Source of the DNA: an uncultured Chitinophaga sp.
GTDB taxonomy: Bacteria > Bacteroidota > Bacteroidia > NS11-12g > UBA9320
Reading direction: 5' to 3'
DNA: 64,000 bases
NCBI GenBank assembly: GCA_964355045.1
Contig: CAYHCM010000002.1
Span: 10,565-74,564, forward strand
The notes beneath the pieces were generated by a model. The model searched no databases, was not told the origin of the DNA, and saw only the letters and a program-made list of their open reading frames with translations. The position numbers and the translations under genes were made by a program. How positions within the stretch are numbered: the first letter of the stretch is position 1; the number at the start of each line of letters is the position of its first letter. Shown piece after piece: positions 16,691 to 38,061 of this stretch.

Positions 16691-17520
16691 TTATAAATAC
16701 CAGCGATTAAATTGAGTCTAAGCGAATATCGTTTTCTTCTATTGCGATATTTTTCAGGTAATATTCTAAATATTTTAATACATCTGATAATATTTTCCAC
16801 TAATACCCTACTGGAAGATATTCTATGATTTTCCTGTTTATCCTGCTTTGTTAGAGGGTTTTTCTTACTTCGCTTTTTAGGTATTTCAGTATTAGGGTGT
16901 ATTTTCTATTGACCTTGATAACCGGTATCAACCTGTGCTATTATTGTATGATGAATAACTGTTTGACTTTGCTTGAAAAGTCTAAAATCATGTCTTCGAC
17001 CAGCTGCCTGAGCAACACACAAAATTTTATTACTTTTGTTATCTACCACTATTTGACTTTTTATTGTGTGTCTCTTTTTCTTGCCTGAGTAATGTTTTCG
17101 TTGTTTTTTTTAGGCCGTTCTATTGGACTTTCAGCTACATCAACCAGCACTATCTCAAAAGAATTAGCCTCTTGCAAAACTTTTTTACCTGGCAAATGAA
17201 ACAACTTGCTTTTTATCAGAAGCCTTTCTAAATCTGTAATAATTCGCCAGCACTGAGCTTCACTAATGCCGTAATCTGCACTTATATGTAGAAAAGTTCT
17301 GTATTCTCTATAATACATAAGCATCATCAATAACTTATCTTCAACACTTAATTTTGGTTTAGGCCCCCTTCTATTACCCGCAATTTTATGCTATGAAGGT
17401 GGGCTTAACCTGATTATTTCTTCAATCATTTTACCGAAGGTATCCTTGTAAACCCCCACTAATCGCTTGAAAACGCCAGGTTTAAAGTCTTTTATTTCTT
17501 CCCATTTCATATGGAAAGTT
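16690..17520 (-). mobile_element. IS5-family DDE transposase gene, inactivated by at least two frameshifts or stops; it abuts or is inserted into the IS1595-like remnant.
   Basis: Re-translation gives 'MKWEEIKDFKPGVFKRLVGVYKDTFGKMIEEI…', then 'GPKPKLSVEDKLLMMLMYYREYRTFLHISADYGISEAQCWRII…LPGKKVL…LVDVAESPIERPKK', then '…KKRHTIKSQIVVDNKSNKILCVAQAAGRRHDFRLF…DTGYQG…', then '…ENIIRCIKIFRILPEKYRNRRKRYSLRLNLIAGIYNFQL*' across three frames. These are IS5-family N-terminal HTH, DDE and C-terminal signatures. Confidence 0.65.
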
Positions 17521-17614
17521 CAGATAATTCTATTCTAATCCTGATTTTACCCTTAAAAACTTATCCCAATATTAATGTGAATTACGAAAGAGGTCTAATG
17601 AAGGCACCAAGCTA

Positions 17615-17980
17615 ATGAGTAGTGTTTACAAATACAGACAAAGATTCAGTTATTATCCGGAAGTGGTATTGGCTGATAAAATTTATTGTAACAGAGATAA
17701 TCGCACCAAACTCAAGGCGCTAAACATAACCCTAAAGGCAAAACCTTTAGGCAGACCAAAGGCAGTGGTGGAAGAACACTTAAGACCGGGCGAACGAAAT
17801 CCAATAGAAGGTAAGTTTGGACAAGCTAAATCCGGATATGGAATGAATCGTATAAAACCAAGACTTCAGCAAACCAGCGAATCTTGCATAGCCACAATAA
17901 TATTGGTACTTAACCTGGTTAAATTAGCCGGGGAAGTACCCCTATGTCTGTTGAAATTGATGATAACTTATTCAGCATAG
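17615..17980 (+). mobile_element. C-terminal fragment of a third DDE transposase (IS4/IS1380-superfamily-like), opposite in orientation to the IS5-like element.
   Basis: '…NPIEGKFGQAKSGYGMNRIKPRLQQTSESCIATIILVLNLVKL' matches the conserved C-terminal 'IEGxFGxxKxxxGLxRIxxRL…NL' transposase motif; no N-terminal part is present. Confidence 0.5.
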
Positions 17981-18101
17981 GAGATAAAAAATAAAAATCA
18001 AAGGCTATTTGATATATTTGTTTGGTCAAAGCAGGAATTTTTACAACCAATAATTATTTGTACTTAACCAGCAGACCCTATTTAAATATTATCAAAGTGC
18101 T

Positions 18102-18139
18102 AAAAAACAAAATCCCGGAAGAATTTCTCCCGGGATTTT
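18102..18139 (-). terminator. Intrinsic terminator of the giant gene.
   Basis: Hairpin AAAATCCCGG-N11-CCGGGATTTT (18109-18139); on the minus strand it is followed by TGTTTTTTA; sits 28 nt after the stop at 18167. Confidence 0.65.
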
Positions 18140-18166
18140 GATTAGATTAAGTATAAACCTTTACGT

Positions 18167-21100
18167 TTAGTTTTTAACTTCAAATCGCAAAATAGTGGTA
18201 AGACCTTTGTCGGTAACGAGTTTTGCGGAATAAATACCTGCCGGTAAATTGTGGTCAGATATGGTAATACGTGAGCTGAAGCGATAACCGCTTAGTATTT
18301 CTCTACCTAACTGATCATACACATTCATGGTTACCATATCGCCCGTACTTACTTCTACGGTAAAGTTATCTTTATTTGGATTTGGGTACAAGCTGGCTGC
18401 AAATGCATTGCGGTTAATGGTGTTAATTCCTGTAGTTGATAGCGCTACATTATAGTTGGCAGGCGTTCCCTGGCAGCCGTTTGCTCCGGTTTCAGTAACC
18501 GTTACAGTTCCTGCTATTCCGGTTGTATTCCATTTAACCTGAATCATACTGGCGCCATTCGACAATACAACACCGTTAGTAGCTACCCAATTATAAGTAG
18601 AACCCGGAGTTGCAGTTACACTATAAATTTTAGTGCTTCCGTTTAACGCGGTATTTGGGCCTGATACTATAATAGCAGCAGGATTTGGGAGTACTTTAAC
18701 AGTATATTGGGATGAATCTCTGCAACCGGATGCATTTGAAAGCCTAAGTGTAACAACATAATTTCCTGCTGCAGCGTATGTACGTGACGCATTAATTGTT
18801 GAAACATTTGTACCATCGCCGAATCTCCATGTATTGGTGAATCCTGAAGCGCCCGGAGAAGTATTGGTAAACCCAAAATTATTACTATTCAAACACTGGG
18901 TTTCATTATTTATGGTGAAAGCAGCCGCAGGACTTGAATTAACGGTAACTGTTTTTGATATTACATCGGTGCATCCGAAATCGGATGTAACCCCAAGAGT
19001 AACCGTATATGTACCTGTTGCACTATATTGTTTTAGAATACTAATACCCCCTTGCGAACTTCCATCGCCTAAATTCCAAACTCTGGTAATAGAACCATCT
19101 GATATGGTTGATGCATCGGTAAAGGCGAATAAGTTACTATTTATACACTGTGAGGAATTATTAATATTAAAGTTTGCCACAGGTTTTGGATATACCATTA
19201 CCGGATTGTTGGTCGAATCTTTACATCCGTTGTTACTGGTTATTACCAATCGTACGGTATAATTTCCTGCCGATGCATACGTTCGTGTTGCATTGGTAGC
19301 CGTGGATGTGCTGCCATCTCCCAATGTCCATGCCCTGTTGTAGGTTCCCGATGCTATCGTTGAGTTATCGGTATAGATAAAATTATTACCATTAATACAC
19401 TGTCCGTTATCATTGATGCTAAAGGCTGCTTTTGGTGCGGCAAATACTGTTACTGATTTGCTTACCGTTGCCTGGCATCCATAAACAGATTTTATGTTCA
19501 ACGTTACATTATAACTTCCGGGACTGGTGTATGAATAACTTGGGTTAAAACTATTCGAACTGCTTCCATCGCCAAACTGCCAGGATACATCACTAGCTCC
19601 CCCTGAGGTGTTTGTAAATGCTATGGCTGTTCCTATACATCGGTCACTAGCTGTAAAGTTTGCAACCGGATTGGCATAAATGATAATCTGTTTGGTTACC
19701 GCATCGGTGCAATTGTTGGCATTTGTAGCTGTAAGTTTTACGCTGTAAGTTCCTGCATTAGTGTAGCTTTGGGTGGGTGATGTAAGGGTAGATGTTGCTG
19801 AATTTCCAAAATCCCATGCATACGTGGTGCCGCCTATGGTGGTGTTGTTAAAAGTAACGGTAGCTCCGGCACATGCGTTGCCTGCATTAAAATTAGCAGC
19901 TGGTTTTCCGTAAACAAGGATTGAGCTGGTATTCCTGTTCTGACATCCTTTATCGGTGGTGGTGGTAAGGGTTACCGTGTAATTGCCTCCTGCCTTGTAA
20001 GTATTGGTGGGGCTTGTATTACTGCTGGTGTTACCGTCGCCAAAACTCCACTGGTGGGTCATGGTGCCTGCCGATAAGGTAGTGGTATTGGTAAAGGTGG
20101 TGCTCAATCCCAAACAGAAATTGCTTGGGTTGGTAAACGATACTGAGGCTCTTGGATGCACTGTAACAGTGGATCGGCTTGTGTCTTTACATCCATTTAT
20201 GGATGTTACGATTAATTGTATGTTATAAGTTCCTGCATTGGCATAGCCTTTGGCCGGATTAGCTACCGTGGATGAATTTCCGTCTCCAAATGTCCACTCA
20301 TGTCCAACTGCTCCTACCGAATTGGTGGCAAATCCAAGATTGTCACTTGTACAGCCGTTATTTACGTTAAACGATGCTTTTGGCCTTGGCCATACGGTTA
20401 CCGTTTTATTGGCTGAGTCTTTACATGCATTTACACTGTTGGCTACTAATTTTACATTATAATTTCCTTCGGTGTTATAAATGTTTGTCGGACTTGTGGC
20501 TGTACTTGTGTTGCCGTTGCCAAATGTCCACTGGTACGTGGATCCGTTGGTGGTGGTATTGGTAAAGTTCATCAAGCCTCCCCTGCATATTGGGTCGGGG
20601 GATGCTGTAAACGATACTACCGGACGGGCGTAAACTGTGACGGTTTTACTCAATGAATCTTTACAGCCGTTTACGGATGTTGTGATAAGTTTAACGGTAT
20701 AAGTTCCTGCTGTGGCATACGTGTAATTGGGTGAATTGGCTGCACTCGATTTTCCGTCTCCAAATACCCAGATGGTAGAGGTGGCTCCTGTGGACTGGTT
20801 GGTAAAGCTTACTGCTGTTCCCAAACACTGGTTGTTAGCCGTAAAGGCCGGTACCGGTTTGGCAAATATTGTTACCGATTTGGTGGTTGAATCTTTGCAT
20901 CCAAAGGTATTGGTTACCACAAGTTTTACAGTAAAGTTGCCTGAGGTGGCATAGGTTTTGGTTGGAGCGGCTGCCGTTGAGGTCGTAGCATCTCCAAAAT
21001 TCCAACTGTTCGTTGCGGCTCCGGTGCTGCTGTTGCTGAATGTAATACTGCTTCCCAAACAAACATTGCTTCCGCTAAAGTTGGCCTTAGGCGACACATT

Positions 21101-24100
21101 AACAGTGTATGATTTAGTAACTGCATGGGTACAACCATTGCTGGTTGTTGCTGTAAGCGTTACGTTGTAAGTACCCGCTGTCGGATAGGTATAGGTAGGG
21201 CTGGCGGTTGTGGATGTGTTTCCGTTTCCAAAATCCCAACTGTAGGTGCTTGCTCCGGTTGAATTATTTGTGAATGTGCTTGTAAATCCATTACATACAT
21301 TGGCCGCTGAAAAATCAGCTACCGGTTTTGGATGTATTGTTACCGTATTGGTGGTTGAATCCAAACATCCGTTTGTGGATGTTATTTTTAATTTCACGGT
21401 ATAGGTTCCGGCCGTAGCATATGTGTTGGTTGGATTGGTGGCGGTGGATGTATTTGCGTCTCCAAATGTCCATTGGTAAACCGAGGCTCCGCTGGATGAA
21501 TTGTTAAACGACGTGCTTACTCCCAGGCAATTGTTCGATACACTGAACGTGGCTTTAGGTTTGCTAAACACATTCACGGTTTTTATAAGTGAATCTTTGC
21601 AACCAAACGTGGAGGTGGACACTAATTTTGCACTGTAGGTTCCTGCCGTTGCATACGTTTTGGTAAAGGATGTGTTGGTTGTGGTACTCGTACTTGCATC
21701 ACCAAACGACCATGCTAAGGATGCAAATCCGGTAGATGTATTGGTGAACGTGGTGGCTGCAGGGAAACATTCATTGGTAGCGCTGAAGTTTGGCGTTGAA
21801 CGGATATTAAATACTACGACCTTGGTGATGGAATCTTTGAATCCACCGGATAAGGATATTCTGAATTTAACATTATAGGTTCCCGCACTGCTGTAATGAT
21901 GGCGTGCATGCTGAACATTGGAGGTGGTGGCATCTCCAAAATTCCAATGGAACTGAAGGCCTGATCCTGATCCGCAAGCATATACGGTATTGTCAACAAA
22001 TATCACTGAATCTCCCTGACATTTTAAGCTAAATGTAAATGATGGCGATGGGGTGGTGGCCACGATTACCGATTTAATCGCCGAATCTTTACAGCCCTGA
22101 TTACTGGTGGCTGTTAAAGTTACGGTATAGGTTCCGCTGCTTGTATATGTTTTGGTTGGTACACTCGAGGTACTGCCGGTTCCGTCTCCAAATTTCCACA
22201 GGTACGTAAGGGAGCCTGATGAAATGGTGGATGAATTGGTTACCGGCATCGGATCGTTAAAACAATGGTTCGATGCGGTATAACTAACCGTTGGTTTTGC
22301 ATTGGTACGAACTTTTATCGCATTGCTTGTTCCGCTTGGGCAACCTGTGCTTCCTGCCAATCTCTGGAAATACGTAAGTGTGGATAAGGTGCCTGAGCTA
22401 TAGGTGGATGAGGTGGCTCCGCTTATATTTGTCCAGGTGCTGCTGTCGGTAGATGACTGCCACTGGAACGTGTATGTTCCCGGTCCGCCTGTTGCCGCTG
22501 CCGTCTGGGTAAAGGCTGCTGGGGCTGTTCCAGCACATATCGTCTGGCCTGAGGCTATAGATCCGCCGGTAATGGGTGAATACAATTTTATTTTTACACC
22601 ATTGGTGCCCGCAGATGGACATGAACCTGAGAATACCAGATTTCTGTAATACGTTACACTTGTTACATTGGTCGGGGTAAAGCTGCTTGAGGTTTGTCCC
22701 GAAATATTACTCCACGTAGCTGAATCGGATGATTGCTGCCATTGGTAGGTATATCCGCCTACTGCACCTGTGGGGGTAGTACTGAATCCTAAGGCTGAAC
22801 CGGTGCCATTGAAACAAATGGTTTGGGCTGTACCAATAACGCCCGGATTTAATAAGGTTCCCACTGTGATAGTTACCGTATTGCTCACTGCCGGCCCGCA
22901 TGCAGCCGTAGTTGTGGATCGGCGGTAATACGTCGTGGTGGTTAATGTGCCCGGCTGATAATCCTGGCCGGTGGCTCCTGATATGTTAGTGAAGTTTACA
23001 TTGTCAGTGGATACCTGCCACTGGTTGGTGTAAGGTGAGATACTTCCTGAAGGTGCTGTGGTAGTGGTAATCAGGGCCGGAGTTGTATTATAACAAATCG
23101 TTTGGCTGGCACCGATAACACCGGCTGAAAGGGTTTTTAATATAAATATAGATTTATCGGCACTATCGGTACAGCCACTGTTGGATGTAGATATAATCCT
23201 TACGGAATACGACGCTGAAGTAGTGGTATATTTATGAGTTGTGGTATTACCCGTACCTGAAGTTGCATCTCCAAATTTCCATGAATTAGCTGTAATGGTT
23301 CCGCCTGAAACGGTAGAAGCGCTTGTAAAGTTTACAAAATTGCCACCGCATGTATCCGTATAGGTAAAGTTAGCTTTTGGCAATGGATTCAGCGTAACAT
23401 TCAAGGTATTGGAGCCATTGCATGATAAAGCGGTAATAGTTTCGGTTACACTTACCGATGCGGTACCGACTGTTCCCCATTTTACGGAAATAGAATTGGT
23501 GTTTTGTCCGCTTTGTATGGTTCCCCCTGTTACTGACCAGCTATAGCTCATACCTGTTTTCAGGGTAGTAGAATACGTGGCAGTTGACTTTTCACAAGCA
23601 GGGTTTGTACCTGATGCCACCGGAGTAGGCTTGGGCACAATGGTAATAGTTGACATGCTTGTATCATTTCCTCTCTGCTCTTCACCAGTTAAGTTGGTAT
23701 ATGCTTTAATAGTGTATGTACCACCTGCAAGCGTATTTATATTATCAGGGAAGGTATAGGATGCAGTAGCTCCCGCTGCCAAAGGCCCGGCAAAATTTTG
23801 GGTTGAGGTAACGGTAGCAGAACCGGTAACTTTTAAAGTAACTGAAATATTTGACTGGCTTAGGAATCCATAATTCTTTATAGAAACCGTTACCTGGGTA
23901 TTGGAGGCGGCACAAGTTGTATTTGTTGGAGATACAATGGCTGAAACTCCGGCATCCTTGCCAAAAGCTTCGAAAGATCCAATGGTCGGAGTCGTTGAAT
24001 TTCTGGTAATATATACAAAATCTTTGGCAATACCTGTGAGAGACATACCTTTATAGGCAACTTCGGCAGTTCCTGATTTTGACGGATCCAGATTTAAATC

Positions 24101-27100
24101 TCCAATCGCCCTGTTTACAAACATATCGGGATTAATTTCGCCTCCTGAAGTACCGCTTGGTATATATGGTGAATTCAAATCTGATCTTGAATTAGCCTTC
24201 CAGTCGCTGAAGTTATAATCCGTAATATTCCAAAGTGCGACAGGATAAGCGGATGAATTGCTTAGCAAATTATAATTGCTCGCATTGTTTTGCCAACCTG
24301 TTTGGAAGGTAGTAATTACATTTTGATTACCTATTGCATAATGCTTTCCTGTTCCACCTTTTCGGTCGTTCATCAATATATTACTCTTTGCATTTACAAT
24401 AGAAGTATATGAGGAAGTAACATAATTATTGCCCCTTAAATAGCCGAAAGATGAATGAATACCAGATGTGGCAGTGCCACCAATATATACAGAATTAAAA
24501 AATGAATTTATGGTAAAGTTGCCTGATGTGGACTGCCAGATACCAATGTACATCGGGCTATTGGTTTGGCCGGTTCCAAGTGAAATCTGGTTGTTCTGCA
24601 ATGTAATTGAATTCTGTGCTGTAGCAATCATAATACCGCAAGCAACTGCCGGAGCATTAATATTGGTGTTGGTTGATAAATTTATTATATCATATACTCG
24701 GTTATTAGAAAATATTGTATTGTTTGCAAAATTTACAAAAAGACCGGTTACAATGGTAGGCGCAGCTCCAGTATTATTTGCTCTTATGTTATAAACTGTA
24801 TTATTTGCAACCCGTCCACCTAAAACAATAGCGTAAATTCCTATGCCTGTAGCGGCAACAATTGTATTGGTGGCAAAAACTGAGGTAATGTTGGAGCAGT
24901 TTACCGAGCAATTAAATACTTTATTGTTAGTTATTGTTGGAATGGAAGTTCCAGAATTTCCAAATACAATTCCTCTAAAGCTAATACCTGATTCAACACC
25001 GTAGGATGTCATATTAGCCACTACATTACTATCAATTAACACTGTTGGAGCATTTAATGACGTCATTTGTGCCTGGATACCAATGATACTGCCGGTTCCG
25101 GAATTTTGTATGCTGTTAGCGACTGTAGTTGAACCAACTAAGTTCTTTCTTATAGTGCACAGTCCGTTAGTCGGGAATATACATACAATGTTTTCAGCAA
25201 CACCCTGCATAGGACAATTAATTCCCTGTATGGTATTGCCAATAATATTGCAATTACCGTTTGACTGATGGGTAAGAATAGAGTGCTGAGCTCCCCCTGA
25301 AAGAACAATTGAATTGATATCGGTTGGGTGTCCGATTAGGTTATTTAAAATATTTACACTAACAGAATTTTGACTTATTATTCCGAAAAATGTAGCACCG
25401 GTTCCTATATTCGTTCTTCGGATGTTTTGAATAACATTGTTACTTATTGTTGAAGGCATAAATAATGATCCGGAGGTAAATGAAATGGCCCTGAAATCAA
25501 CATTTGCATTATTAACCCAGGGAGCGCCGCCGCAATTCTTAGCTGAACCACCTATATAATTTCCGGAGATAAGATGGCCGCCTGATTGATATTGAACATC
25601 CATAAAAATAGAATATTGTAAAGCAAAGGCAGGAATTGACAGGCTACGGTAAAAACTATTGCCTGAAATATTCCAGTTATTTCCATTTCCTACATTGGCA
25701 ATCCAAATTCCATATTGTGTAAAATTAGTTATTTCATTTCCCATAATAACGTTGGCCGTATTTTCTTTGCCAACATCACCCAAACTGTAAATATCAACAG
25801 CCGGAACTCCAAGAGGGAAGACACCTGTTCTGTTATGCTCTATCAAACAATTTGATACTGTATCTCTGCTGTTTCCGAGCATTTTGGTTGAAGTACTGAA
25901 TTGTATAACACCTGATGTTATTGAAGAATTGCCACTCTCAATATTCAGATTGTTCAATCTGTTATCTGTAGCTTCATTGATAAATAAAAATACCTGACCG
26001 GCGGTATTGGTGTTTCTGAACCTAAGTTTTCTATCAGTGCCGCCACCGTTAAAATCAGGAATCCCTGAAAACTTAACCCTGTCGGCTCCATCTAATCTGA
26101 TCATGCTTCCTACATTACCTGAAATTAAACGTTCTGTGTTTGTTAATGAATCGGGACGGATAGTTAAAGTATAAGTACCTCCTCCGTTATCACCCAATTG
26201 ATTTAAGCCGAACGTACCGGGTTCATCAGTATTTGAAGAAATTACGGCAGTAACATCTCCACCTAACGAAACGGTATTTAAATATTCGAACAAACCACCT
26301 GCTCCTGTAAGGGTTGGATAGGTTTTACCCGTTCCTACTCTCAGTTTACTTCCTGCTGCTAATGCCCCAACTAATTTATAGGTTAGTGGAATGGCAGGAT
26401 GTGTAGTAATTGTATTGACATCGGAAGCAACGGCATAAAGACCGTTTGACCTTAAATTGCCTGCATTATCCTGAGCTATTATATAATATCTGATGGTATC
26501 ACCAGTGGCTACTCCACCCATTGTTGAATAATCAATGGCAAAGGTTGCAACTGCATTTTTATTGCTGCCCGTTAAGGCTGTGGCTGCAGAAGAGTACCAG
26601 GTTGATCCGTTTTTTGAGAAATAGATTCTTGGAATATTAGTTCCGCTCATTGGAATTCCTGCATTATCAGTAATGGATACATTGCTTACAGTTCGTGAAC
26701 CGGAAGTTGTACTTGCATTATTTAACAAATTGAACGTAATAACAGGAGCAATTATATCTGAAGATAATGAGAAATTGCCTGAATGGGCACCTATATCTAC
26801 AGGTGTTCTGCCCGATCTTATATTTCCATCAAAGTCATCCGTTGTAGGAACATCCATAGCTCCGTTACCTTCGGCCGTATTGGTACCTGATAAATGTAAA
26901 TTAACAGCTAAGGCATTTCCCGTAGGATTAACAAAACCCGGATCACCACTTCCACTATTCAAATCAAAACCTGTAGCCGATTGCCAGCTTGCTGCTCCGC
27001 TTAAATTGGTATAATCGGTAGCGGTTGATATAATATTTCCTGTTATCCCTCCCGTACCATTGGCATATAAAATATTATTATTTGAGAATATCAGGCTTGT

Positions 27101-30100
27101 TGACTGTAATTGCATTGCGAAGTTTTTGCCGGATGCTGAACCGGTGTTGCTTACCGCATTATGGAAAATATTATTCTTTATCACTACCCGTGTAGTGGTT
27201 GCTGAAAATGCAACAGGCAACGAAAACGCGGAAGTTACTGAAGCACCTGAACCGGGTGAACCGCCAAGATAAACGCTGTTATGATAATAATATGCAGAAG
27301 TACTATTGGTTATTAGCTGCTGGATTCCATAAACATTATATGGACCCGAAAAAGCATTACCTGCAGAATCAATACCAATTCGAATCATATTATTTTCGTA
27401 GGTTCCTGAGTATCCATAATTTAATATTCCAATCATAGTTCCGGCACCGCTTGTGCTTAATTTTAAACTGTGAATATTATTGCGTGAAACCAGATAAGGA
27501 GTATTGGAAGAAGCTGCAAGAGAAACAAGTCCTATAACATTAACTGCATTGGCTGTAGCTGTATTAGTATGATTTAAGGAATGAATTGTATTGCCTGTAA
27601 ATGAAATAAATGTTCCACCACCTGAGTAGCATAACCCTATAATACCTGCAGAATATTGAGTACCTGTGGAAGTAGTCATTGAATTTAAACTGGAAATGGT
27701 ATTGTTATGTATTTTTAAACCCGAACCACTCGATATATACAATCCCATCATTTGAACAGTTGCTGGTGTGGAACTTACATATTGTAAATCAGAAATTATA
27801 TTATCAGAACATTCCGAATTTCCAAGGTTTCCATTCATCAGCAAGCCAATTATTCCGGATGCTGTAGATACCGAATTGGGATTGGCAGTACTTGAAACCA
27901 AGCCTGAAATTATATTTCCCTTTGTTTTATTTAATCCTGCAAGGGTATATAGACCAACCATACAATGGTTCCCGACATTTCTCAAATTCTTTAAATTTTT
28001 AACGGTATTATTCAAAATATTTTGAACACTTCCGCCAGAACTAACTCCAATACCTACAACGGCAGCCGAAGTTGATGATCCTGAATTACTTGAAGTGGCA
28101 TTAAAATTTTGTACTGTATTATTCCTTACATTTAATTCATAGGTTGTGGTTGAAATCATAATACCTCTTACTGCAGTACTTGTATATACAGTTCCTCCGG
28201 TAGCTGTTAAATTAGAAATAATATTATTATTAACAGTTAACTTAAACGACGTAGTACTGTTTATTCCTATAAGTCCTGCATTACCGTTGGTCTGTATGCT
28301 ATTGGAGGTAGCCGCATCTCCAATATTATTTCCTGTCGTTCCTCCTACATCTACCACTCCACCGTTAATATTTATTCCTGTAAACAGGATAGTAAGTGTT
28401 CCAGTTCCTGAAAAAAGGAAATTTTGAATAGTGTTACCCTGAACCTGAACCCCATCCTGAGTACCTGCACTAAGCAAAATGCCATTAAATGCTGACATAG
28501 CTGAATTATTAAATGCTGAACCACCGCAATAAGGTTCCATACCGCCGATAAAATTACCGCTAATAGTATCATTGTTGGAAATAATCCCGGGTACAAAATT
28601 TATTGCAGTTTGAGCACTTGTAGCCGGATTTGAAGGAGTTCTGTAGAAATGATTATTTAAAATTCTCCAGTTGTTTCCACCTGAATTTGCTGCTACGGTA
28701 ATCCCAAAGGAAGTAAAATTATAAATCCTGCATTCACGAATGGTAATATTATCATTCATTAATTCAGGAAGAACGGCTGTTGGCAATTGACCAAGAGATT
28801 GGATTCCGTTGGTCATACCACTTCCATTGATGGCCCGGATATAACTTCTGATAAAGGTATTATTATCGTTACCGGTTACCATTCCGGTAGCGCTCAGTAA
28901 TATAGCTGACGTTGTTGATCCCTCAACAACGCAATTTTCAATCGTATTATTTACGGCATCATTCAATAAAGTTATAACCGGATCAGAAGTACTTGTTGTT
29001 TTAATAAAGAGAAAAGTATCTGTTGAACTTCCTCCGGTTGGCATTCCTGTAATTTTAACCCTGTCAGCACCATTCAATCGTATCATTCCACCGGTTCCTG
29101 AACCGGTAACTGCGCGTCGTGAAGCCGCCGATGGGCGGATGGTTAAGGTATAACCCGAACCACCTGTTTCTATCCACTGATTTAAAGCTACCGCACCCGT
29201 TTCAGTCATATCACTTGTAATATTTATTACTGTATTTCCCTGCAAGCCCGAATTATTTATCGCATTAAACAATCCTGCTGCACCTGTTTCGGTTAAGGTA
29301 GTATAAGTTTGCCCTGAACCAACGTCAATACTTGTTGACAACGAAGGAACAATCATATAGGTGTTTGGTGTAGTGGGATCGGTTGAAACCGAAGAAACAC
29401 TTGAAGCAATAGCATACATGGCATTTGATACCACATTACCTGCACTATCCTGAGCTAAAATATAATAACTAATTATATCTGCATTGCTAACTCCACCAAG
29501 TGTTGTAGCATTTATTGTAAAAGTCCAAACACCGTTTTGTTGGTTACCTGAAGTCAAGGAGCCTGCACCTGAATAAACCGTACCCGAGCCTTTTTTATAA
29601 TAAACCCTTGGAGCGTTTGCGGTAGTTTTTGGCATTCCAAGTCCGTTATCTATAATATTCACAGTAAATGTCCGGTCACTTGTTGAACTGGTATTGGTTA
29701 AAGGGTTCAAATTAATAATTGGAGGAAACTTATCGCCTGATTTTGTAAATGTTCCGGCATCAGCCCCAATGTCATTCGGGGTTAAACCTGAGCGTACCTG
29801 ATTATCAAAATCGTCCAATACGCTTGTAACGGTTGGGTCACCCGCACTTTCGGCAGGATTGCCTGAACTTAAATGTAAATCAACGGTTGAACTTGTTCCG
29901 TTTGGAGTAAGATAATTAGGATTAGATGATCCGCTTTGTCCGTCAAGCAGGGTTGCGCTGTTCCAGCTACTTGCTCCGGTTAGGTTTGTATATGGCGTTG
30001 TGCTAATTAAGCCGGCAACTCCCATTGTATTTGGTGTATAGATTATATTATGATTCGAAAATATCCTGCCGTTATTTGTGGTAATACTTATACCCGCATT

Positions 30101-33100
30101 ATAACCTGTACTGGTATTGAGTATATTATTATAAAAAATATTGTTTTTAATATTTACAGTTTCTGTCGGTGAACTTATGGTTCCTGTAAGTTCTATACAA
30201 GCTGAATTTGTTGTTCCGCCTGAAATTCCTGCCAGGTATATGCTGTTATTATAATAATTATTTGAATATATTGTATTTTGAAAAATACCCTTATATGTAT
30301 AAGGTCCACTTATAGCATTACCAATAGAGTCAACCCCTAAACGAATCATATTATTTTGATAGGTTGCAGTTCCTCCGTAATTATAAATACCGGTCATATT
30401 TCCGGCAGCGGAGGTAGCTAATCCAAAACTGTGAATAAAGTTATTATTAACGATTGAATAATTGCCAAACGTAGTAGCGGTAGTAAAATAAATACCTAAA
30501 ATAGTAGCTGCGGCAGAGGTATTGTAGTTATAAAAATTATAAATAGAATTGCCTGTTATATTTTTATTGGCTGAGGCTGATAAAACATAAATGCCGGTAA
30601 TAGAAGCCGGAGTAAGAGCTGTCGTGCTGCTGTTAGATGAAAAATTACGAATTTTGTTATTTTTCATATAGGTCAAAGTTGATTGAATATTAATTCCAAG
30701 AATATAGGTACCCGCATTGGCAGTGGCACTAAAATTTTCGATGGTATTATTATTAATAGTTGCAGGTAATCCGGTATTATAACTTATACCAACAATACAT
30801 GATGTTTGATTGGCAGCGGTACTGGTACTTGCAGTTGTTAGGTCACTTATAATATTATTTGTTATATCGGTAGCGCCTGAAGCGATATACATACCTTCAA
30901 TTTGAGTAGAAGCGGCAGCAGTAGAAATAAGATTTCTTATTTCATTACCATTATATACACATCCATTAGTGCCCTGATGATATATACCAATAATAGCGGC
31001 TGATGAGGTATTACTGGTGCTTGGAGAACTACTTAACAAACCATTAATTTTATTTCCTTTTATCTGGGTAATACCTGCAATATTCATAATTCCGATTACA
31101 CGGGTTTGGCCGGTAGTGGTTGTACTGCTTAACGCTTCCGAAATACTGCCTCCTACTATGTTATCTGTAATAAATTGGTTATTGGAAGACGACTGCATTA
31201 AAATTCCAATAAGCACTGCTGAAGTTGTAGAACCGGCATTGGCTGAATTGGTAACAAAATTTCGGATGATATTATTAGTAATGTACACCGAAGCGCCACC
31301 TGTATTAACAATACCCCTGATAGCTCCGGATGTACTTGTGTTATTTTGGGAAATATTGGCAATCGTATTATAACTCATTACCATATCATGGAAAGCGGAA
31401 GATGAAATGCCGATCATCGCATTATTACCTAATGAACTTATACTATTGGCAGTAGATGCATGCCCAATCGTATTTCCTTTGCCTGCTGCGCCTCCAAGTA
31501 TAAGAGATCCACCTTGAGGGTTGATACCCATAAATTGAGCCGAATTGGTTGTACTTGTAAAACTGATATTTTGAATTACATTATTTTGAACCAATGTTGG
31601 CGTACCCGGGTTACACGAAATTCTGATACCGGCCATAGTAGCCGATGAAGAACTATTAACCAGCGGAGAACCCCCACAATTGGCTAAAGTTCCTCCAATA
31701 TAATTATTGCTAATTATATTTGCTATGGAAAGTGAAGTAGTTCCCGGTAAAAAATTAATAGCCACCCAGTTTGTGCTTGTAGTACCTGCCGTAGTAGCGC
31801 TATCATAAAAACTATTATTGGTTATCGTCCATTTTTCACCATTACCTAATGAATTAACTACATTTATTCCATAATTATAGAAGGAATGAATTTCATTATC
31901 GGTAATAGTAATATTATCTGTTTGAATTAACAGGTTAGAAGTTGGTGACGATGTAATAGCCGAATATAAAAAGGAGGTAGCAGATGACCTGGTAATCAAA
32001 TTATTTGAAATTACGTTACTGTCATTTCCAAAAAACTTGTTGGAAGTTCCTAAAAAAATTGCCCCGCTTGCCGGGTTGGTATTTGATGAGCGGATATTGC
32101 AATATTTAATAGTATTGCGTATGGCATCATTCTGCAAAGTAAAAACTGTACCGCTTCCACTTGTATTCGAAAAAGATAATTCCTTTGAAGTTCCTGTTCC
32201 ACCGGGGCGACCATCAAATGTAACCCTGTAGGCGTTGTCCAAAATAAATAAGGCCGTGGCACTATTGCCGGATATTACCAAATTAGTAGCACCTGAGGCA
32301 GGCCGTATAGTAAGCTGTGGATTAGAATTGGCTGTTCCGCAAATATTTGTAGTAAATATTGGTATAGTTATAGGGAAACTTTCAACAGATGACGCATACG
32401 TGCTCTGTAATTCCAACACAACACTCCCGTTAAATCCTTTAAGTTTTAAAGAATCAGAAGCCATTTTTATAGATGAGAATGTGCCGGTAGGTCCTACGGA
32501 ATAGCTTCCGCTTAAAGGGGTTTGTGCTCCATAAAAACTTATATTGGTCAGGTTGGTATCATTGCTATGTGCTGAATCTAAGCTATATCCGGTAAATGAT
32601 TTCATGGTTAAAGCACCTTTGAGGGCAGCAGTATTTAATGTACCCATGTGTATGGTATCAGTGCCTCCTATTGCAAGGGTTCTGGTATATGATTTTGTAA
32701 ACGTTCCGGTGGTTACTCCTGATAATTGCATAGTAACAGGTATAGAGGATGTAATGCTGTTTTTACCTGAATTTTTTATTTGTACAATAAACGGATCGGC
32801 TGTAGCACCGCAAACATACGTTGGGCTTATTAAGGCTGAAATACCAACATCATTTGCATCAGCATCCAGGTTAATGGTATAATCTTCTGCTTCGCCATAG
32901 CTCAGGTCATCACATGAACCTGAATTGGTTGTAGGACAAGTACTAAAATAATACTCTGATCTAATTCTCATGCGAGTGGTACCTACGGTTACTGATGAAG
33001 GTATGGTTACATTAAAATAGGTTAAGGTAGATGAACCGTTCGGAACATTACCAACTGAATAAACACAATTTGGAGGAGACATCCATTCACCTGCATCTAA

Positions 33101-33496
33101 AAAATCGTTATCCCCGTTTAAATCAATCCATATCATCATATTTACAGGATAAGTAGGACCCGTGGTAAACCCGAATGAATAGGTTTTCCCTGCCTTTAGC
33201 GTAAACATGGGAGAACTACTCAAAAGAGTGTACTGGCCTGAGGAAGATTTACAACCACTATTTGTTGTGGTATGTGCACGATTAAATAGCGTGGTGGAGC
33301 CTAACTTAATTTCCACCGCATTTACCGACATTCCGTAAGTCGTGCAATTTCCACTTTGTCCACTATAAACAGGGGTACAATAGGGAGACTGCGCTTTGGC
33401 AATACCGCCAAATAGCGATAATAGAAAAACCGGTAACAAGGTTTTAGTAAAACTGTTTGATAAATTTTTGTTTAATTGAGTAGAATTTTTTTTCAT
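18167..33496 (-). CDS. Giant 5109-aa T9SS-secreted surface protein (adhesin-like). N- to C-terminus it has: a signal peptide; a GEVED-like N-terminal domain ('…DDLSYGEAEDYTINL'); a CARDB-like domain; three paralogous right-handed beta-helix modules of ~1000 aa each; a PKD-like domain; 3 Ig-like repeats; ~16 PKD repeats ('W.FGDG' motif); a PKD-like domain; and a type-A T9SS CTD.
   Basis: Single uninterrupted 15,330-nt ORF. Module starts 'PASGATNLVISGNSATALFILDNAYRVTFDG', 'SAASRRAVTGSGTGGMIRLNGADRVKITG' and 'DSLTNTERLISGNVGSMIRLDGADRVKFSG', with matching module ends '…LHLSSGNPAESAGDPTVTSVLDDFDNQVRSG…' and '…LHLSGTNTAEGNGAMDVPTTDDFDGNIRSG…'. C-terminal 'YPNPNKDNFTVEV…MNVYDQLGREI…AGIYSAKLVTDKGLTTILRFEVKN'. 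Confidence 0.85.
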   Translation of the reverse strand: MKKNSTQLNKNLSNSFTKTLLPVFLLSLFGGIAKAQSPYCTPVYSGQSGNCTTYGMSVNAVEIKLGSTTLFNRAHTTTNSGCKSSSGQYTLLSSSPMFTLKAGKTYSFGFTTGPTYPVNMMIWIDLNGDNDFLDAGEWMSPPNCVYSVGNVPNGSSTLTYFNVTIPSSVTVGTTRMRIRSEYYFSTCPTTNSGSCDDLSYGEAEDYTINLDADANDVGISALISPTYVCGATADPFIVQIKNSGKNSITSSIPVTMQLSGVTTGTFTKSYTRTLAIGGTDTIHMGTLNTAALKGALTMKSFTGYSLDSAHSNDTNLTNISFYGAQTPLSGSYSVGPTGTFSSIKMASDSLKLKGFNGSVVLELQSTYASSVESFPITIPIFTTNICGTANSNPQLTIRPASGATNLVISGNSATALFILDNAYRVTFDGRPGGTGTSKELSFSNTSGSGTVFTLQNDAIRNTIKYCNIRSSNTNPASGAIFLGTSNKFFGNDSNVISNNLITRSSATSFLYSAITSSPTSNLLIQTDNITITDNEIHSFYNYGINVVNSLGNGEKWTITNNSFYDSATTAGTTSTNWVAINFLPGTTSLSIANIISNNYIGGTLANCGGSPLVNSSSSATMAGIRISCNPGTPTLVQNNVIQNISFTSTTNSAQFMGINPQGGSLILGGAAGKGNTIGHASTANSISSLGNNAMIGISSSAFHDMVMSYNTIANISQNNTSTSGAIRGIVNTGGASVYITNNIIRNFVTNSANAGSTTSAVLIGILMQSSSNNQFITDNIVGGSISEALSSTTTTGQTRVIGIMNIAGITQIKGNKINGLLSSSPSTSNTSSAAIIGIYHQGTNGCVYNGNEIRNLISTAAASTQIEGMYIASGATDITNNIISDLTTASTSTAANQTSCIVGISYNTGLPATINNNTIENFSATANAGTYILGINIQSTLTYMKNNKIRNFSSNSSTTALTPASITGIYVLSASANKNITGNSIYNFYNYNTSAAATILGIYFTTATTFGNYSIVNNNFIHSFGLATSAAGNMTGIYNYGGTATYQNNMIRLGVDSIGNAISGPYTYKGIFQNTIYSNNYYNNSIYLAGISGGTTNSACIELTGTISSPTETVNIKNNIFYNNILNTSTGYNAGISITTNNGRIFSNHNIIYTPNTMGVAGLISTTPYTNLTGASSWNSATLLDGQSGSSNPNYLTPNGTSSTVDLHLSSGNPAESAGDPTVTSVLDDFDNQVRSGLTPNDIGADAGTFTKSGDKFPPIINLNPLTNTSSTSDRTFTVNIIDNGLGMPKTTANAPRVYYKKGSGTVYSGAGSLTSGNQQNGVWTFTINATTLGGVSNADIISYYILAQDSAGNVVSNAMYAIASSVSSVSTDPTTPNTYMIVPSLSTSIDVGSGQTYTTLTETGAAGLFNAINNSGLQGNTVINITSDMTETGAVALNQWIETGGSGYTLTIRPSAASRRAVTGSGTGGMIRLNGADRVKITGMPTGGSSTDTFLFIKTTSTSDPVITLLNDAVNNTIENCVVEGSTTSAILLSATGMVTGNDNNTFIRSYIRAINGSGMTNGIQSLGQLPTAVLPELMNDNITIRECRIYNFTSFGITVAANSGGNNWRILNNHFYRTPSNPATSAQTAINFVPGIISNNDTISGNFIGGMEPYCGGSAFNNSAMSAFNGILLSAGTQDGVQVQGNTIQNFLFSGTGTLTILFTGININGGVVDVGGTTGNNIGDAATSNSIQTNGNAGLIGINSTTSFKLTVNNNIISNLTATGGTVYTSTAVRGIMISTTTYELNVRNNTVQNFNATSSNSGSSTSAAVVGIGVSSGGSVQNILNNTVKNLKNLRNVGNHCMVGLYTLAGLNKTKGNIISGLVSSTANPNSVSTASGIIGLLMNGNLGNSECSDNIISDLQYVSSTPATVQMMGLYISSGSGLKIHNNTISSLNSMTTSTGTQYSAGIIGLCYSGGGTFISFTGNTIHSLNHTNTATANAVNVIGLVSLAASSNTPYLVSRNNIHSLKLSTSGAGTMIGILNYGYSGTYENNMIRIGIDSAGNAFSGPYNVYGIQQLITNSTSAYYYHNSVYLGGSPGSGASVTSAFSLPVAFSATTTRVVIKNNIFHNAVSNTGSASGKNFAMQLQSTSLIFSNNNILYANGTGGITGNIISTATDYTNLSGAASWQSATGFDLNSGSGDPGFVNPTGNALAVNLHLSGTNTAEGNGAMDVPTTDDFDGNIRSGRTPVDIGAHSGNFSLSSDIIAPVITFNLLNNASTTSGSRTVSNVSITDNAGIPMSGTNIPRIYFSKNGSTWYSSAATALTGSNKNAVATFAIDYSTMGGVATGDTIRYYIIAQDNAGNLRSNGLYAVASDVNTITTHPAIPLTYKLVGALAAGSKLRVGTGKTYPTLTGAGGLFEYLNTVSLGGDVTAVISSNTDEPGTFGLNQLGDNGGGTYTLTIRPDSLTNTERLISGNVGSMIRLDGADRVKFSGIPDFNGGGTDRKLRFRNTNTAGQVFLFINEATDNRLNNLNIESGNSSITSGVIQFSTSTKMLGNSRDTVSNCLIEHNRTGVFPLGVPAVDIYSLGDVGKENTANVIMGNEITNFTQYGIWIANVGNGNNWNISGNSFYRSLSIPAFALQYSIFMDVQYQSGGHLISGNYIGGSAKNCGGAPWVNNANVDFRAISFTSGSLFMPSTISNNVIQNIRRTNIGTGATFFGIISQNSVSVNILNNLIGHPTDINSIVLSGGAQHSILTHQSNGNCNIIGNTIQGINCPMQGVAENIVCIFPTNGLCTIRKNLVGSTTVANSIQNSGTGSIIGIQAQMTSLNAPTVLIDSNVVANMTSYGVESGISFRGIVFGNSGTSIPTITNNKVFNCSVNCSNITSVFATNTIVAATGIGIYAIVLGGRVANNTVYNIRANNTGAAPTIVTGLFVNFANNTIFSNNRVYDIINLSTNTNINAPAVACGIMIATAQNSITLQNNQISLGTGQTNSPMYIGIWQSTSGNFTINSFFNSVYIGGTATSGIHSSFGYLRGNNYVTSSYTSIVNAKSNILMNDRKGGTGKHYAIGNQNVITTFQTGWQNNASNYNLLSNSSAYPVALWNITDYNFSDWKANSRSDLNSPYIPSGTSGGEINPDMFVNRAIGDLNLDPSKSGTAEVAYKGMSLTGIAKDFVYITRNSTTPTIGSFEAFGKDAGVSAIVSPTNTTCAASNTQVTVSIKNYGFLSQSNISVTLKVTGSATVTSTQNFAGPLAAGATASYTFPDNINTLAGGTYTIKAYTNLTGEEQRGNDTSMSTITIVPKPTPVASGTNPACEKSTATYSTTLKTGMSYSWSVTGGTIQSGQNTNSISVKWGTVGTASVSVTETITALSCNGSNTLNVTLNPLPKANFTYTDTCGGNFVNFTSASTVSGGTITANSWKFGDATSGTGNTTTHKYTTTSASYSVRIISTSNSGCTDSADKSIFILKTLSAGVIGASQTICYNTTPALITTTTAPSGSISPYTNQWQVSTDNVNFTNISGATGQDYQPGTLTTTTYYRRSTTTAACGPAVSNTVTITVGTLLNPGVIGTAQTICFNGTGSALGFSTTPTGAVGGYTYQWQQSSDSATWSNISGQTSSSFTPTNVTSVTYYRNLVFSGSCPSAGTNGVKIKLYSPITGGSIASGQTICAGTAPAAFTQTAAATGGPGTYTFQWQSSTDSSTWTNISGATSSTYSSGTLSTLTYFQRLAGSTGCPSGTSNAIKVRTNAKPTVSYTASNHCFNDPMPVTNSSTISSGSLTYLWKFGDGTGSTSSVPTKTYTSSGTYTVTLTATSNQGCKDSAIKSVIVATTPSPSFTFSLKCQGDSVIFVDNTVYACGSGSGLQFHWNFGDATTSNVQHARHHYSSAGTYNVKFRISLSGGFKDSITKVVVFNIRSTPNFSATNECFPAATTFTNTSTGFASLAWSFGDASTSTTTNTSFTKTYATAGTYSAKLVSTSTFGCKDSLIKTVNVFSKPKATFSVSNNCLGVSTSFNNSSSGASVYQWTFGDANTSTATNPTNTYATAGTYTVKLKITSTNGCLDSTTNTVTIHPKPVADFSAANVCNGFTSTFTNNSTGASTYSWDFGNGNTSTTASPTYTYPTAGTYNVTLTATTSNGCTHAVTKSYTVNVSPKANFSGSNVCLGSSITFSNSSTGAATNSWNFGDATTSTAAAPTKTYATSGNFTVKLVVTNTFGCKDSTTKSVTIFAKPVPAFTANNQCLGTAVSFTNQSTGATSTIWVFGDGKSSAANSPNYTYATAGTYTVKLITTSVNGCKDSLSKTVTVYARPVVSFTASPDPICRGGLMNFTNTTTNGSTYQWTFGNGNTSTATSPTNIYNTEGNYNVKLVANSVNACKDSANKTVTVWPRPKASFNVNNGCTSDNLGFATNSVGAVGHEWTFGDGNSSTVANPAKGYANAGTYNIQLIVTSINGCKDTSRSTVTVHPRASVSFTNPSNFCLGLSTTFTNTTTLSAGTMTHQWSFGDGNTSSNTSPTNTYKAGGNYTVTLTTTTDKGCQNRNTSSILVYGKPAANFNAGNACAGATVTFNNTTIGGTTYAWDFGNSATSTLTSPTQSYTNAGTYSVKLTATNANNCTDAVTKQIIIYANPVANFTASDRCIGTAIAFTNTSGGASDVSWQFGDGSSSNSFNPSYSYTSPGSYNVTLNIKSVYGCQATVSKSVTVFAAPKAAFSINDNGQCINGNNFIYTDNSTIASGTYNRAWTLGDGSTSTATNATRTYASAGNYTVRLVITSNNGCKDSTNNPVMVYPKPVANFNINNSSQCINSNLFAFTDASTISDGSITRVWNLGDGSSQGGISILKQYSATGTYTVTLGVTSDFGCTDVISKTVTVNSSPAAAFTINNETQCLNSNNFGFTNTSPGASGFTNTWRFGDGTNVSTINASRTYAAAGNYVVTLRLSNASGCRDSSQYTVKVLPNPAAIIVSGPNTALNGSTKIYSVTATPGSTYNWVATNGVVLSNGASMIQVKWNTTGIAGTVTVTETGANGCQGTPANYNVALSTTGINTINRNAFAASLYPNPNKDNFTVEVSTGDMVTMNVYDQLGREILSGYRFSSRITISDHNLPAGIYSAKLVTDKGLTTILRFEVKN
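18650..22800. repeat. Tandem ~255-bp coding repeats (PKD-domain array) inside the giant gene.
   Basis: About 16 successive ~85-aa units each containing '[WF].FGDG/FGNG…T…Y…G.Y.V.L…N..GC.D'; they produce the many stop-free antisense ORFs listed in the ORF track. Confidence 0.7.
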
Positions 33497-38040: not shown

Positions 38041-38061
38041 AGCATTTGTTTCAATTTACAA

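What the first reader, a model, noticed from the sequence alone, without database searches (positions are those of the whole stretch)
18167..33496. 15.3-kb single-ORF giant T9SS surface protein with triplicated ~1000-aa beta-helix modules
The 5109-aa protein combines a GEVED-like N-terminal domain with three paralogous ~1000-aa right-handed beta-helix modules. Each module ends in a conserved '…LHLS.GN.AE…DDFD…RSG.TP.DIGA' segment. A ~16-unit PKD array is flanked on both sides by a conserved Ig-like 'Y.W…G…V.W…G…V.V.E…GC' domain, and a type-A T9SS CTD follows. The internal triplication and the gene's size, about 24% of the window, are striking; this looks like a lineage-specific adhesin or carbohydrate-binding surface fibre. 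The coding DNA is highly repetitive, which raises the risk of assembly collapse or expansion.
Basis: partly seen in the sequence, partly recalled or inferred. Interest (0 to 1): 0.55.

Follow-up and report, generated by a model that had tools for sequence, protein, structure and literature searches.

The report
Giant secreted surface fibre protein
This is a real, correctly assembled 5,109-residue gene for a long cell-surface fibre of an uncultured Bacteroidota bacterium. Its three beta-helix rods are an old, widely conserved core shared by many similar giant proteins, so it is an uncharacterised but fairly ordinary member of a known class.

Summary
The ORF 18167-33496 (- strand, 5,109 aa) is real. 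Two other assemblies carry it at 99.99-100% DNA identity. HMMs confirm GEVED, 16 PKD units, two PKD_6 domains, one CARDB domain and a type A T9SS sorting domain.

The triplication is real but ancient. The order BH1-Ig-BH2-Ig-BH3 recurs in at least 29 of 75 loci from other species. In 13 of 13 three-module homologues, each module best matches the module at the same position here. The core is therefore not lineage-specific.

What varies is the N-terminal head (GEVED here; BNR_assoc_N, fn3 or unmatched elsewhere) and the C-terminal stalk (PKD here; TIG, fn3, Ig_7 or PKD_6 elsewhere).

The DNA is not repetitive. The longest exact repeat is 18 nt, and PKD units are at most 63% identical. The collapse worry is unfounded.

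Best reading: a T9SS-exported, surface-anchored, adhesin-like fibre with a conserved triple beta-helix shaft. An enzymatic role for the helices is not excluded. It is a new member of a known kind, of moderate interest.

The parts
18167..33496 (-). Whole ORF, 5,109 codons plus stop
   Evidence: DNA is 99.99-100% identical in the independent assemblies L001 and L002.
33392..33496 (-). Sec signal peptide, aa 1-35, with predicted cleavage AKA|QS
   Evidence: Read from the sequence. An Ala-Gln junction at the end of the hydrophobic stretch recurs in most homologues. No signal-peptide predictor was run.
32867..33391 (-). N-terminal head, aa 36-210, containing the GEVED domain (aa 121-209)
32522..32866 (-). 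CARDB-like Ig domain 1, aa 211-325
   Evidence: No Pfam hit of its own. It is 33% identical (E 1.5e-10) to aa 3175-3294, which does hit CARDB.
29747..32521 (-). Beta-helix module BH1, aa 326-1250
   Evidence: Paralogue of BH2. Best-matching module at position 1 in 13/13 three-module homologues.
29342..29746 (-). Inter-module Ig-like domain 1, aa 1251-1385
   Evidence: 46% identical to Ig-like domain 2. Conserved between modules in the homologues.
26777..29341 (-). Beta-helix module BH2, aa 1386-2240
26372..26776 (-). Inter-module Ig-like domain 2, aa 2241-2375
   Evidence: Modelled together with BH2. Foldseek matches the Ig-like domain of P. gingivalis PPAD, probability 1.0.
23963..26371 (-). 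Beta-helix module BH3, aa 2376-3178, the most divergent of the three
   Evidence: Best-matching module at position 3 in 13/13 homologues, 124-1036 bits.
23627..23962 (-). CARDB domain 2, aa 3179-3290
   Evidence: Pfam PF07705, E 2.3e-5, 25 bits against a cut-off of 22.7.
23381..23626 (-). PKD_6 domain a, aa 3291-3372
   Evidence: Pfam PF19408, 2 stretches.
23132..23380 (-). PKD unit 1, aa 3373-3455
22298..23131 (-). Three Ig_7-like repeats of about 92 aa ('Y.WQ.S.D...W..I.G'), aa 3456-3733
   Evidence: Pfam PF19081, 3 stretches, E 4.9e-5, 24 bits, below the 27.3 cut-off. The same three repeats sit at the same place in the orthologues.
18692..22297 (-). PKD units 2-16, aa 3734-4935
   Evidence: Pfam PKD_4, E 1.3e-183, 16 stretches in all. 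Motif spacing is 78-84 aa.
18437..18691 (-). PKD_6 domain b, aa 4936-5020
   Evidence: Pfam PF19408, E 1.4e-6, 28.9 bits against a cut-off of 25.
18170..18391 (-). T9SS type A C-terminal sorting domain, aa 5036-5109
   Evidence: TIGR04183, E 1.3e-9. PF18962, E 4.5e-7.
18108..18140 (-). Terminator-like hairpin (15-bp stem followed by a T run), 27 nt after the stop codon
   Evidence: This is a consensus scan only.

Best explanation
The gene encodes a giant cell-surface fibre of the fibrillar-adhesin-like type.

Proposed path (inferred from what is known about type A T9SS cargo):
- A Sec signal peptide takes the protein to the periplasm.
- The type A C-terminal domain routes it through the type IX secretion system.
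- Such cargo is normally cleaved there and fixed covalently to the outer-membrane surface.

This anchoring puts the C-terminus at the cell. From the cell outwards, the protein would then consist of:
- a flexible stalk of about 22 Ig-like domains: PKD_6, 15 PKD, three Ig_7-like repeats, PKD, PKD_6 and CARDB;
- a rigid shaft of three right-handed parallel beta-helix rods separated by Ig-like joints. Each rod has about 20 coils and is about 10 nm long, assuming the usual 4.8 A rise per coil;
- at the tip, a CARDB-like domain and a GEVED beta-sandwich head.

The triple-helix shaft is the conserved, ancient part of the family. The head and the stalk are exchangeable cassettes. The fibre most likely binds something outside the cell, such as a glycan, particle or other cell. 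Binding would be through the head, possibly together with the helix surfaces.

Shown here: the domain identities, the fold, the conserved order of the core and the integrity of the gene.
Inferred: export, anchoring, orientation, dimensions and ligand binding.
For: - Domain calls. GEVED, 16 PKD units, 2 PKD_6, CARDB and Por_Secre_tail/TIGR04183 all score above their curated cut-offs.
- No sign of an active site in the central helix groove. Among columns at least 80% conserved across 55 homologues, 39 are G, 27 are N and 16 are I. No charged residue is conserved across the central ~370 aa of the helix. No lyase or hydrolase Pfam model hits at E<=1.
- Conserved core. The order BH1-Ig-BH2-Ig-BH3 appears in at least 29 of 75 GTDB loci. 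Position-for-position best matches hold in 13/13 three-module homologues.
- Exchangeable head and stalk. Heads are GEVED, BNR_assoc_N, fn3 or unmatched. Stalks are PKD, TIG, fn3, Ig_7 or PKD_6. Por_Secre_tail is present in 10/12 homologues. Even the syntenic orthologue L004 carries a different head.
- Literature. GEVED was defined from the head region of the streptococcal fibrillar adhesin CshA (PMC10952558). Por_Secre_tail is used as an anchor criterion for fibrillar-adhesin-like proteins in Bacteroidetes (PMC8286594).
- Stand-alone gene. It has its own terminator-like hairpin, and homologue loci share no conserved neighbours.
Against: - There is no experimental evidence for any member of this family, and no ligand is known.
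- The classical adhesin logic is reversed here. The supposed shaft is the conserved part and the head varies, so the helices may carry the real function.
- The fold is shared with many polysaccharide lyases, hydrolases and phage depolymerases.
- A conserved W/D/D/R/D cluster in the C-terminal cap of each helix (W2171, D2178, D2221, R2227, D2234 in BH2) has no assigned role.
- No recognised adhesive domain is present. In PMC10952558 GEVED is counted as a stalk or partner domain.
- T9SS machinery genes are not in the 64-kb window.
Confidence: 0.6

Rival explanations
1. It is a surface-displayed polysaccharide-degrading or -modifying enzyme. One or more of the beta-helix modules would be a lyase, hydrolase or epimerase. 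The head and Ig-like domains would act as carbohydrate-binding and spacer modules.
For: - Structural neighbours include PL6 and PL9 lyases, GH87, GH136 and GH110 enzymes, AlgE4 and phage capsule depolymerases.
- Heads of homologues include BNR_assoc_N, the N-terminal domain of BNR-repeat neuraminidases.
- The best match of the GEVED head model is an accessory domain of an endo-beta-N-acetylglucosaminidase.
- The helices, not the head, are the conserved part.
- A conserved D/R/D/W cluster lies in the helix cap.
Against: - No Pfam lyase, hydrolase or Beta_helix model hits at E<=1, and there is no NCBIfam hit.
- Conserved columns in the central helix are almost all G, N or I, with no charged residue.
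- The conserved charged cluster sits in the cap, not in the groove where beta-helix enzymes place their active sites. That placement is general knowledge and was not mapped on coordinates here.
Confidence: 0.22
2. It is a gliding-motility adhesin of the SprB/RemA type, moved along the cell surface by the gliding machinery.
For: It is a giant repetitive T9SS cargo protein in Bacteroidota, and it contains Ig_7-like 'CHU_C-associated' repeats.
Against: - The CTD is type A (TIGR04183 / PF18962). SprB and RemA use the type B CHU_C class (my knowledge of the F. johnsoniae system).
- No PorP/SprF-like partner gene is adjacent.
- No Pfam domain in the body of the protein points to an SprB-type adhesin: searches list only GEVED, CARDB, PKD families, Ig_7 (sub-threshold) and Por_Secre_tail. 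SprB itself was not compared directly.
Confidence: 0.05
3. It is an assembly artefact: a chimera, or a collapsed or expanded repeat array.
For: The source is a short-read metagenome, and the protein has many tandem domains.
Against: - The same 15.3-kb gene is found at 99.99% and 100% DNA identity in an ENA assembly and a Logan assembly.
- The longest exact internal repeat is 18 nt and PKD units are at most 63% identical in DNA. TRF finds nothing.
- Orthologues from other MAGs (L007 5,031 aa, L008 5,082 aa, P0127) have the same architecture, including 16 PKD units.
Confidence: 0.02

Closest known systems
[quoted passage not shown] 2021, PMC8286594)
   Same: A long single polypeptide with tandem Ig-like stalk domains, a C-terminal T9SS sorting domain as anchor and a distinct N-terminal domain.
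   Different: It has no recognised adhesive Pfam domain. About 2,850 aa (56%) form a conserved triple beta-helix core that no Pfam or NCBIfam model covers. The core, not the head, is the conserved element.
CshA of Streptococcus gordonii, the source of the GEVED domain definition (PMC10952558)
   Same: A GEVED domain near the N-terminal distal end of a surface fibre, upstream of repeat domains.
   Different: CshA pairs GEVED with an NR2 ligand-binding domain and uses a Gram-positive LPxTG anchor. Here only about 85 aa precede GEVED, and no NR2-like domain was detected among the Pfam hits. Secretion and anchoring are by T9SS.
Autotransporter and two-partner-secretion beta-helix adhesins (Vag8, Fap2)
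   Different: The secretion route differs (type V against T9SS). Here there are three separate helices of about 20 coils joined by Ig-like domains. Sequence identity is only 10-13%.
SprB and RemA gliding adhesins of Flavobacterium johnsoniae
   Same: Giant T9SS cargo on the surface of Bacteroidota.
   Different: They use a type B (CHU_C-class) CTD and a dedicated PorP/SprF-like partner (my knowledge). This protein has a type A CTD and no such neighbour.
Phage tailspike depolymerases and PL6/PL9 polysaccharide lyases
   Different: There is no sequence-family membership and no conserved groove residues. The protein is predicted as a single polypeptide with Ig-like joints. No oligomer prediction was made.
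Giant beta-helix filament proteins Cag_663 and Cag_665 of the 'Chlorochromatium aggregatum' epibiont (bioRxiv 10.64898/2026.03.19.712371)
   Same: Very large extracellular proteins of the FCB group, dominated by a parallel beta-helix and with variable N-terminal parts.
   Different: Those are 20,000-27,000 aa with one continuous helix, are proposed to be exported by a type I system, and are Ca-dependent. No homology to them was tested here.

Membership tests
T9SS type A cargo | C-terminal sorting domain matching TIGR04183 / PF18962 above the curated cut-off | tested here: met
   TIGR04183 scores 37.9 bits against a cut-off of 23 at aa 5036-5107. PF18962 scores 30.5 against 27.
T9SS type A cargo | N-terminal Sec signal peptide | tested here: met
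   By inspection only: MKK..., hydrophobic stretch LLPVFLLSLFGGI, then AKA|QS. The same Ala-Gln junction is seen in homologues. No predictor was available.
T9SS type A cargo | The host encodes T9SS machinery (PorU, PorV, SprA, GldKLMN) | not testable with these tools
   None is present in the 64-kb window. Other CTD-bearing ORFs are present: 13518-15269 (Por_Secre_tail) and 37176-38040 (CHU_C).
T9SS type A cargo | CTD cleavage and attachment to the cell surface | not testable with these tools
   This needs proteomics or microscopy on the uncultured organism.
Right-handed parallel beta-helix (pectin-lyase-like fold) | Match to a sequence model such as Pfam Beta_helix PF13229 | tested here: not met
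   There is no hit in any of the three modules at E<=1. PF13229 does hit 1 of 12 orthologues and some homologues. A family profile hits PDB 9rx2 at 2.2e-6.
Right-handed parallel beta-helix (pectin-lyase-like fold) | Three-stranded coils stacked into a right-handed helix | tested here: met
Beta-helix polysaccharide lyases and glycoside hydrolases | Family HMM match and conserved catalytic residues in the groove | tested here: not met
   There is no Pfam hit. No charged residue is conserved in the central helix. Conserved residues were not mapped onto the 3D model.
Fibrillar-adhesin-like protein (Monzon et al. 2021) | Tandem stalk domains plus a cell anchor | tested here: met
   16 PKD units, 2 PKD_6, 3 Ig_7-like repeats and CARDB, with Por_Secre_tail as anchor.
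Fibrillar-adhesin-like protein (Monzon et al. 2021) | A known adhesive domain | tested here: inconclusive
   Only GEVED was found, and it is counted as a stalk or partner domain in PMC10952558. The fold match of the head is suggestive, not specific.
SprB-type gliding adhesin | Type B (CHU_C / TIGR04131-class) CTD and an adjacent PorP/SprF-like gene | tested here: not met
   The CTD is type A. The neighbours are AnmK, a Glu/Leu/Phe/Val dehydrogenase and IS remnants.
PKD domain array | Repeated matches to PF18911 / PF00801 | tested here: met
   PKD_4 gives 16 stretches at E 1.3e-183, and PKD gives 14 stretches.
Conserved BH1-Ig-BH2-Ig-BH3 core family (unnamed, defined here) | Three beta-helix modules in fixed order with position-for-position best matches | tested here: met
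   13/13 three-module homologues, at least 29 of 75 GTDB loci, and the same complete architecture in L007, L008 and P0127.

The most novel reading that the evidence does not exclude
The triple beta-helix core of about 2,850 aa is not a passive shaft. It would be the functional unit of an undescribed, ancient family of giant T9SS cargo proteins.

Supporting observations:
- The number and order of modules are fixed.
- The modules are distinguishable by position across species.
- Several MAGs carry three paralogues.
- Heads and stalks are swapped freely.

Together these would mean the three helices have distinct, non-redundant jobs. One example would be a surface machine that binds or processes polymers using the conserved cap cluster (W/D/D/R/D). 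The heads would only provide targeting.
Probability: 0.25. Interest if true: 0.6.

Novelty: new member of a known kind. Interest (0 to 1): 0.35.

Why it matters
Giant surface proteins are among the least understood genes of environmental Bacteroidota, and they probably decide what these cells stick to or feed on. This gene itself is not exceptional. It does, however, point to a large uncharacterised family: 2,826 representative clusters for the module, and dozens of species with the same three-module core. No Pfam or NCBIfam model covers that core.

A family model and one biochemical characterisation would annotate thousands of very large ORFs now labelled 'hypothetical' or 'PKD domain-containing'. 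The case also shows that a long, domain-repetitive gene can be assembled safely from short reads when its repeats have diverged at the DNA level.

Tried and rejected
- **DNA-level repeats.** TRF gave 0 rows. The repeat finder gave only 60-78% identical families. This rejects the collapse worry.
- **RNA genes.** Rfam and tRNA scans of the window found nothing.
- **HMM scans of the modules.** Pfam at E<=1 on each module and NCBIfam on both halves gave no beta-helix, lyase or 'choice-of-anchor' hit.
- **Length bias in one search.** The word-indexed homologue search returned no protein longer than about 1,750 aa, and did not return the query protein itself. Its length distribution therefore cannot be used to judge how rare multi-module proteins are. 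The index-free search corrected this.
- **Conserved neighbours.** None was found in homologue loci. Only the closest relative, L004, is syntenic on the upstream side.
- **Promoter.** No TAnnTTTG motif is present in the 305-bp upstream spacer.
- **Donor for the GC3-rich stalk segment.** No orthologue is specially similar there.
- **Literature.** Searches for this family or for the sample accessions found nothing specific.
- **Taxonomy of the window.** It was not determined directly. It is inferred as Bacteroidota from the T9SS domains and from the closest relatives being Bacteroidia or Chitinophaga-labelled MAGs.
Full report
**Observation.** The window holds one uninterrupted ORF on the - strand, 18167-33496, of 5,109 codons. 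This is 24% of the window.
- GEVED at aa 121-209 (E 1.5e-14);
- 16 PKD units (PKD_4, E 1.3e-183, 16 stretches);
- two PKD_6 domains;
- a type A T9SS sorting domain (TIGR04183, 37.9 bits against a cut-off of 23; PF18962, 30.5 against 27).

Self-comparison shows three paralogous modules. BH1 and BH2 align end to end at 35-50% identity. BH3 aligns by BLAST only over its first ~300 residues. Global identities are 41%, 35% and 35%.

**Corrected anatomy**:

| Residues | Element |
|---|---|
| 1-35 | signal peptide (AKA\|QS) |
| 36-210 | GEVED head |
| 211-325 | CARDB-like domain |
| 326-1250 | BH1 |
| 1251-1385 | Ig-like domain |
| 1386-2240 | BH2 |
| 2241-2375 | Ig-like domain |
| 2376-3178 | BH3 |
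| 3179-3290 | CARDB (Pfam E 2.3e-5, above cut-off) |
| 3291-3372 | PKD_6 |
| 3373-3455 | PKD 1 |
| 3456-3733 | three Ig_7-like repeats (below cut-off) |
| 3734-4935 | PKD 2-16 |
| 4936-5020 | PKD_6 |
| 5036-5109 | CTD |

The module-end motif is clear in BH1 and BH2 and degenerate in BH3.

**Is it a beta-helix?** No Pfam model hits any of the three modules, even at E<=1. The fold is nevertheless well supported:
- An alignment of 55 homologues (A1) gave an AlphaFold2 model of BH2 plus its Ig domain with pLDDT 89.1 and pTM 0.89. The model consists of about 21 three-strand coils.
- A profile of A1 hits PDB 9rx2 'Parallel beta-helix repeat protein' at E 2.2e-6.
- PF13229 hits some homologues.

**The triplication is ancient and not lineage-specific.** An index-free search with BH1 plus its Ig domain found 2,826 representative clusters at E<=1e-3 and 994 at E<=1e-30. 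Many are 2,000-6,400 aa with 4-15 matched stretches.

Mapping this protein's segments onto the best hits shows the same order, BH1-Ig-BH2-Ig-BH3. In 13 of 13 three-module homologues, the module at position i scores best against this protein's module i. For example, the BH1/BH2/BH3 bit scores for the three positions of P0124 are 585/307/94, 307/510/161 and 124/165/422.

A scan of one genome per GTDB species found at least 558 related stretches. Of the 75 loci kept, at least 29 have exactly this core, and about ten more are truncated or four-module variants. Several MAGs carry three paralogues.

L007 (5,031 aa), L008 (5,082 aa) and P0127 share the complete architecture, including 16 PKD units, PKD_6 and the CTD. 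Nearly all carriers of the three-module core are uncultured Bacteroidota. One-module and two-module relatives occur in Verrucomicrobiota, Ignavibacteria, Kapaibacteria and Acidobacteriota.

**What varies.**
- Heads are GEVED here and in L007 and L008. In five of 12 homologues they are BNR_assoc_N. Others carry fn3, a weak F5/8-type-C or DUF7402-like domain, or nothing recognisable.
- Stalks are PKD here and TIG, fn3, Ig_7 or PKD_6 arrays elsewhere.
- Por_Secre_tail is present in 10/12.
- The syntenic orthologue L004 (ELFV dehydrogenase - AnmK - giant gene, 65% identical) has a different head.

**Integrity of the gene.** The exact protein is on record from NCBI, ENA and Logan assemblies. L001 and L002 match the window at 99.99% and 100% across the entire gene. 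TRF finds no tandem DNA repeats. The longest exact direct repeat in the CDS is 18 nt, and PKD units share at most 63% DNA identity. Collapse or expansion is very unlikely.

**Context.** The neighbours are housekeeping genes: NIF3, AnmK, a Glu/Leu/Phe/Val dehydrogenase and others. Downstream, 15.7-18.1 kb is a patch of transposase remnants. A terminator-like hairpin follows the stop codon. Homologue loci share no conserved partner genes. No T9SS machinery gene lies in the window.

**Mechanism.** Shown here are the domain identities, the fold, the conserved core and the variable ends. The following steps are inferred from established knowledge of type A T9SS cargo:
- Sec export.
- CTD-dependent passage through the T9SS.
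- CTD removal and covalent attachment to the outer surface, so that the C-terminus is cell-proximal.

That orientation places about 22 Ig-like domains as a stalk, the three helices as a rigid shaft, and the CARDB-like and GEVED domains at the tip. The helices would be about 10 nm each at 4.8 A per coil, which is an estimate.

**Enzyme or rod?** Across 55 homologues, the columns at least 80% conserved are mostly G (39), N (27) and I (16). No charged residue is conserved in the central ~370 aa of the helix. Conserved charged or aromatic residues cluster in the caps: E1432 and D1544 at one end, and W2171, D2178, D2221, R2227 and D2234 at the other. Together with the lack of any lyase or hydrolase HMM hit, this favours a structural or binding role. 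However, the core is the conserved part, and the cap cluster has no assigned role. I therefore keep an enzymatic reading at about 0.2.

**Comparison and novelty.** The protein belongs to the known kind 'giant T9SS-anchored fibrillar-adhesin-like protein'. It is not an SprB-type gliding adhesin, because it has a type A CTD and no PorP/SprF-like neighbour. What is not in the libraries or in the searched literature is the conserved three-helix core family. I rate the gene as a new member of a known kind and give it an interest of 0.35. The more novel reading, that the core is itself a functional machine, gets a probability of 0.25.

Noticed in passing
window 19997-23596 (codons ~3300-4500 of the giant gene): Third-codon-position GC jumps to 0.40-0.44 in the Ig_7-like and PKD 2-11 part of the stalk. 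It is 0.23-0.30 in the rest of the gene and 0.25-0.37 in neighbouring genes. Four orthologues (L007, L008, L004, L082) have a uniform GC3 along the gene, and none is specially similar in this stretch. This may be an old import of a stalk cassette by recombination, but no donor was found.
   Followed up: partly
window 15745-18100: A patch of transposase remnants lies directly downstream of the giant gene. It holds a DDE_Tnp_1_2 fragment (17615-17980, +), an HTH_Tnp_4 fragment (17061-17330, -) and a further short ORF (16035-16307, -) that looked transposase-like by eye; that ORF was not scanned. No intact transposase is present.
   Followed up: partly
L004 (GCA_038918005.1 contig JBCLAM010000010.1) 6328-19332: The syntenic orthologue P0122 (65% identical) carries a different N-terminal head, a weak F5/8-type-C-like domain instead of GEVED. 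It also stops inside its tenth PKD unit with no PKD_6 or CTD, overlapping a CNNM gene. This looks like a deletion or misjoin in that MAG rather than in the window.
   Followed up: partly
L013/L014/L037, L015/L016/L046, L024/L030/L042, L032/L034/L076: Several single MAGs carry three separate genes of the beta-helix core family. Most of these genes have the full BH1-Ig-BH2-Ig-BH3 order; L024 is a four-module variant and L076 a divergent one. This points to expansion of paralogues with different heads and stalks.
   Followed up: partly
window 37176-38972 (- strand): A run of four small ORFs (129, 131, 133 and 166 aa) lies next to an M23 peptidase, an HmuY-like protein and a TonB-dependent receptor. 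Two of the ORFs consist of little more than a CHU_C (type B T9SS) domain. Either they are unusually small type B cargo or they are pieces of a broken gene.
   Followed up: no
window 13518-15269 (- strand): A second T9SS type A cargo gene of 583 aa. Apart from its Por_Secre_tail / DUF3244-like C-terminus it has no Pfam domain.
   Followed up: no
window 2238-2816 (+) and 5399-5998 (-): Two Uma2-family (putative restriction endonuclease-like) genes lie within 3 kb of each other.
   Followed up: no
window 18108-18140 (- strand): A 15-bp-stem hairpin followed by a T run sits 27 nt after the stop codon of the giant gene, so the gene probably ends its own transcript.
   Followed up: no
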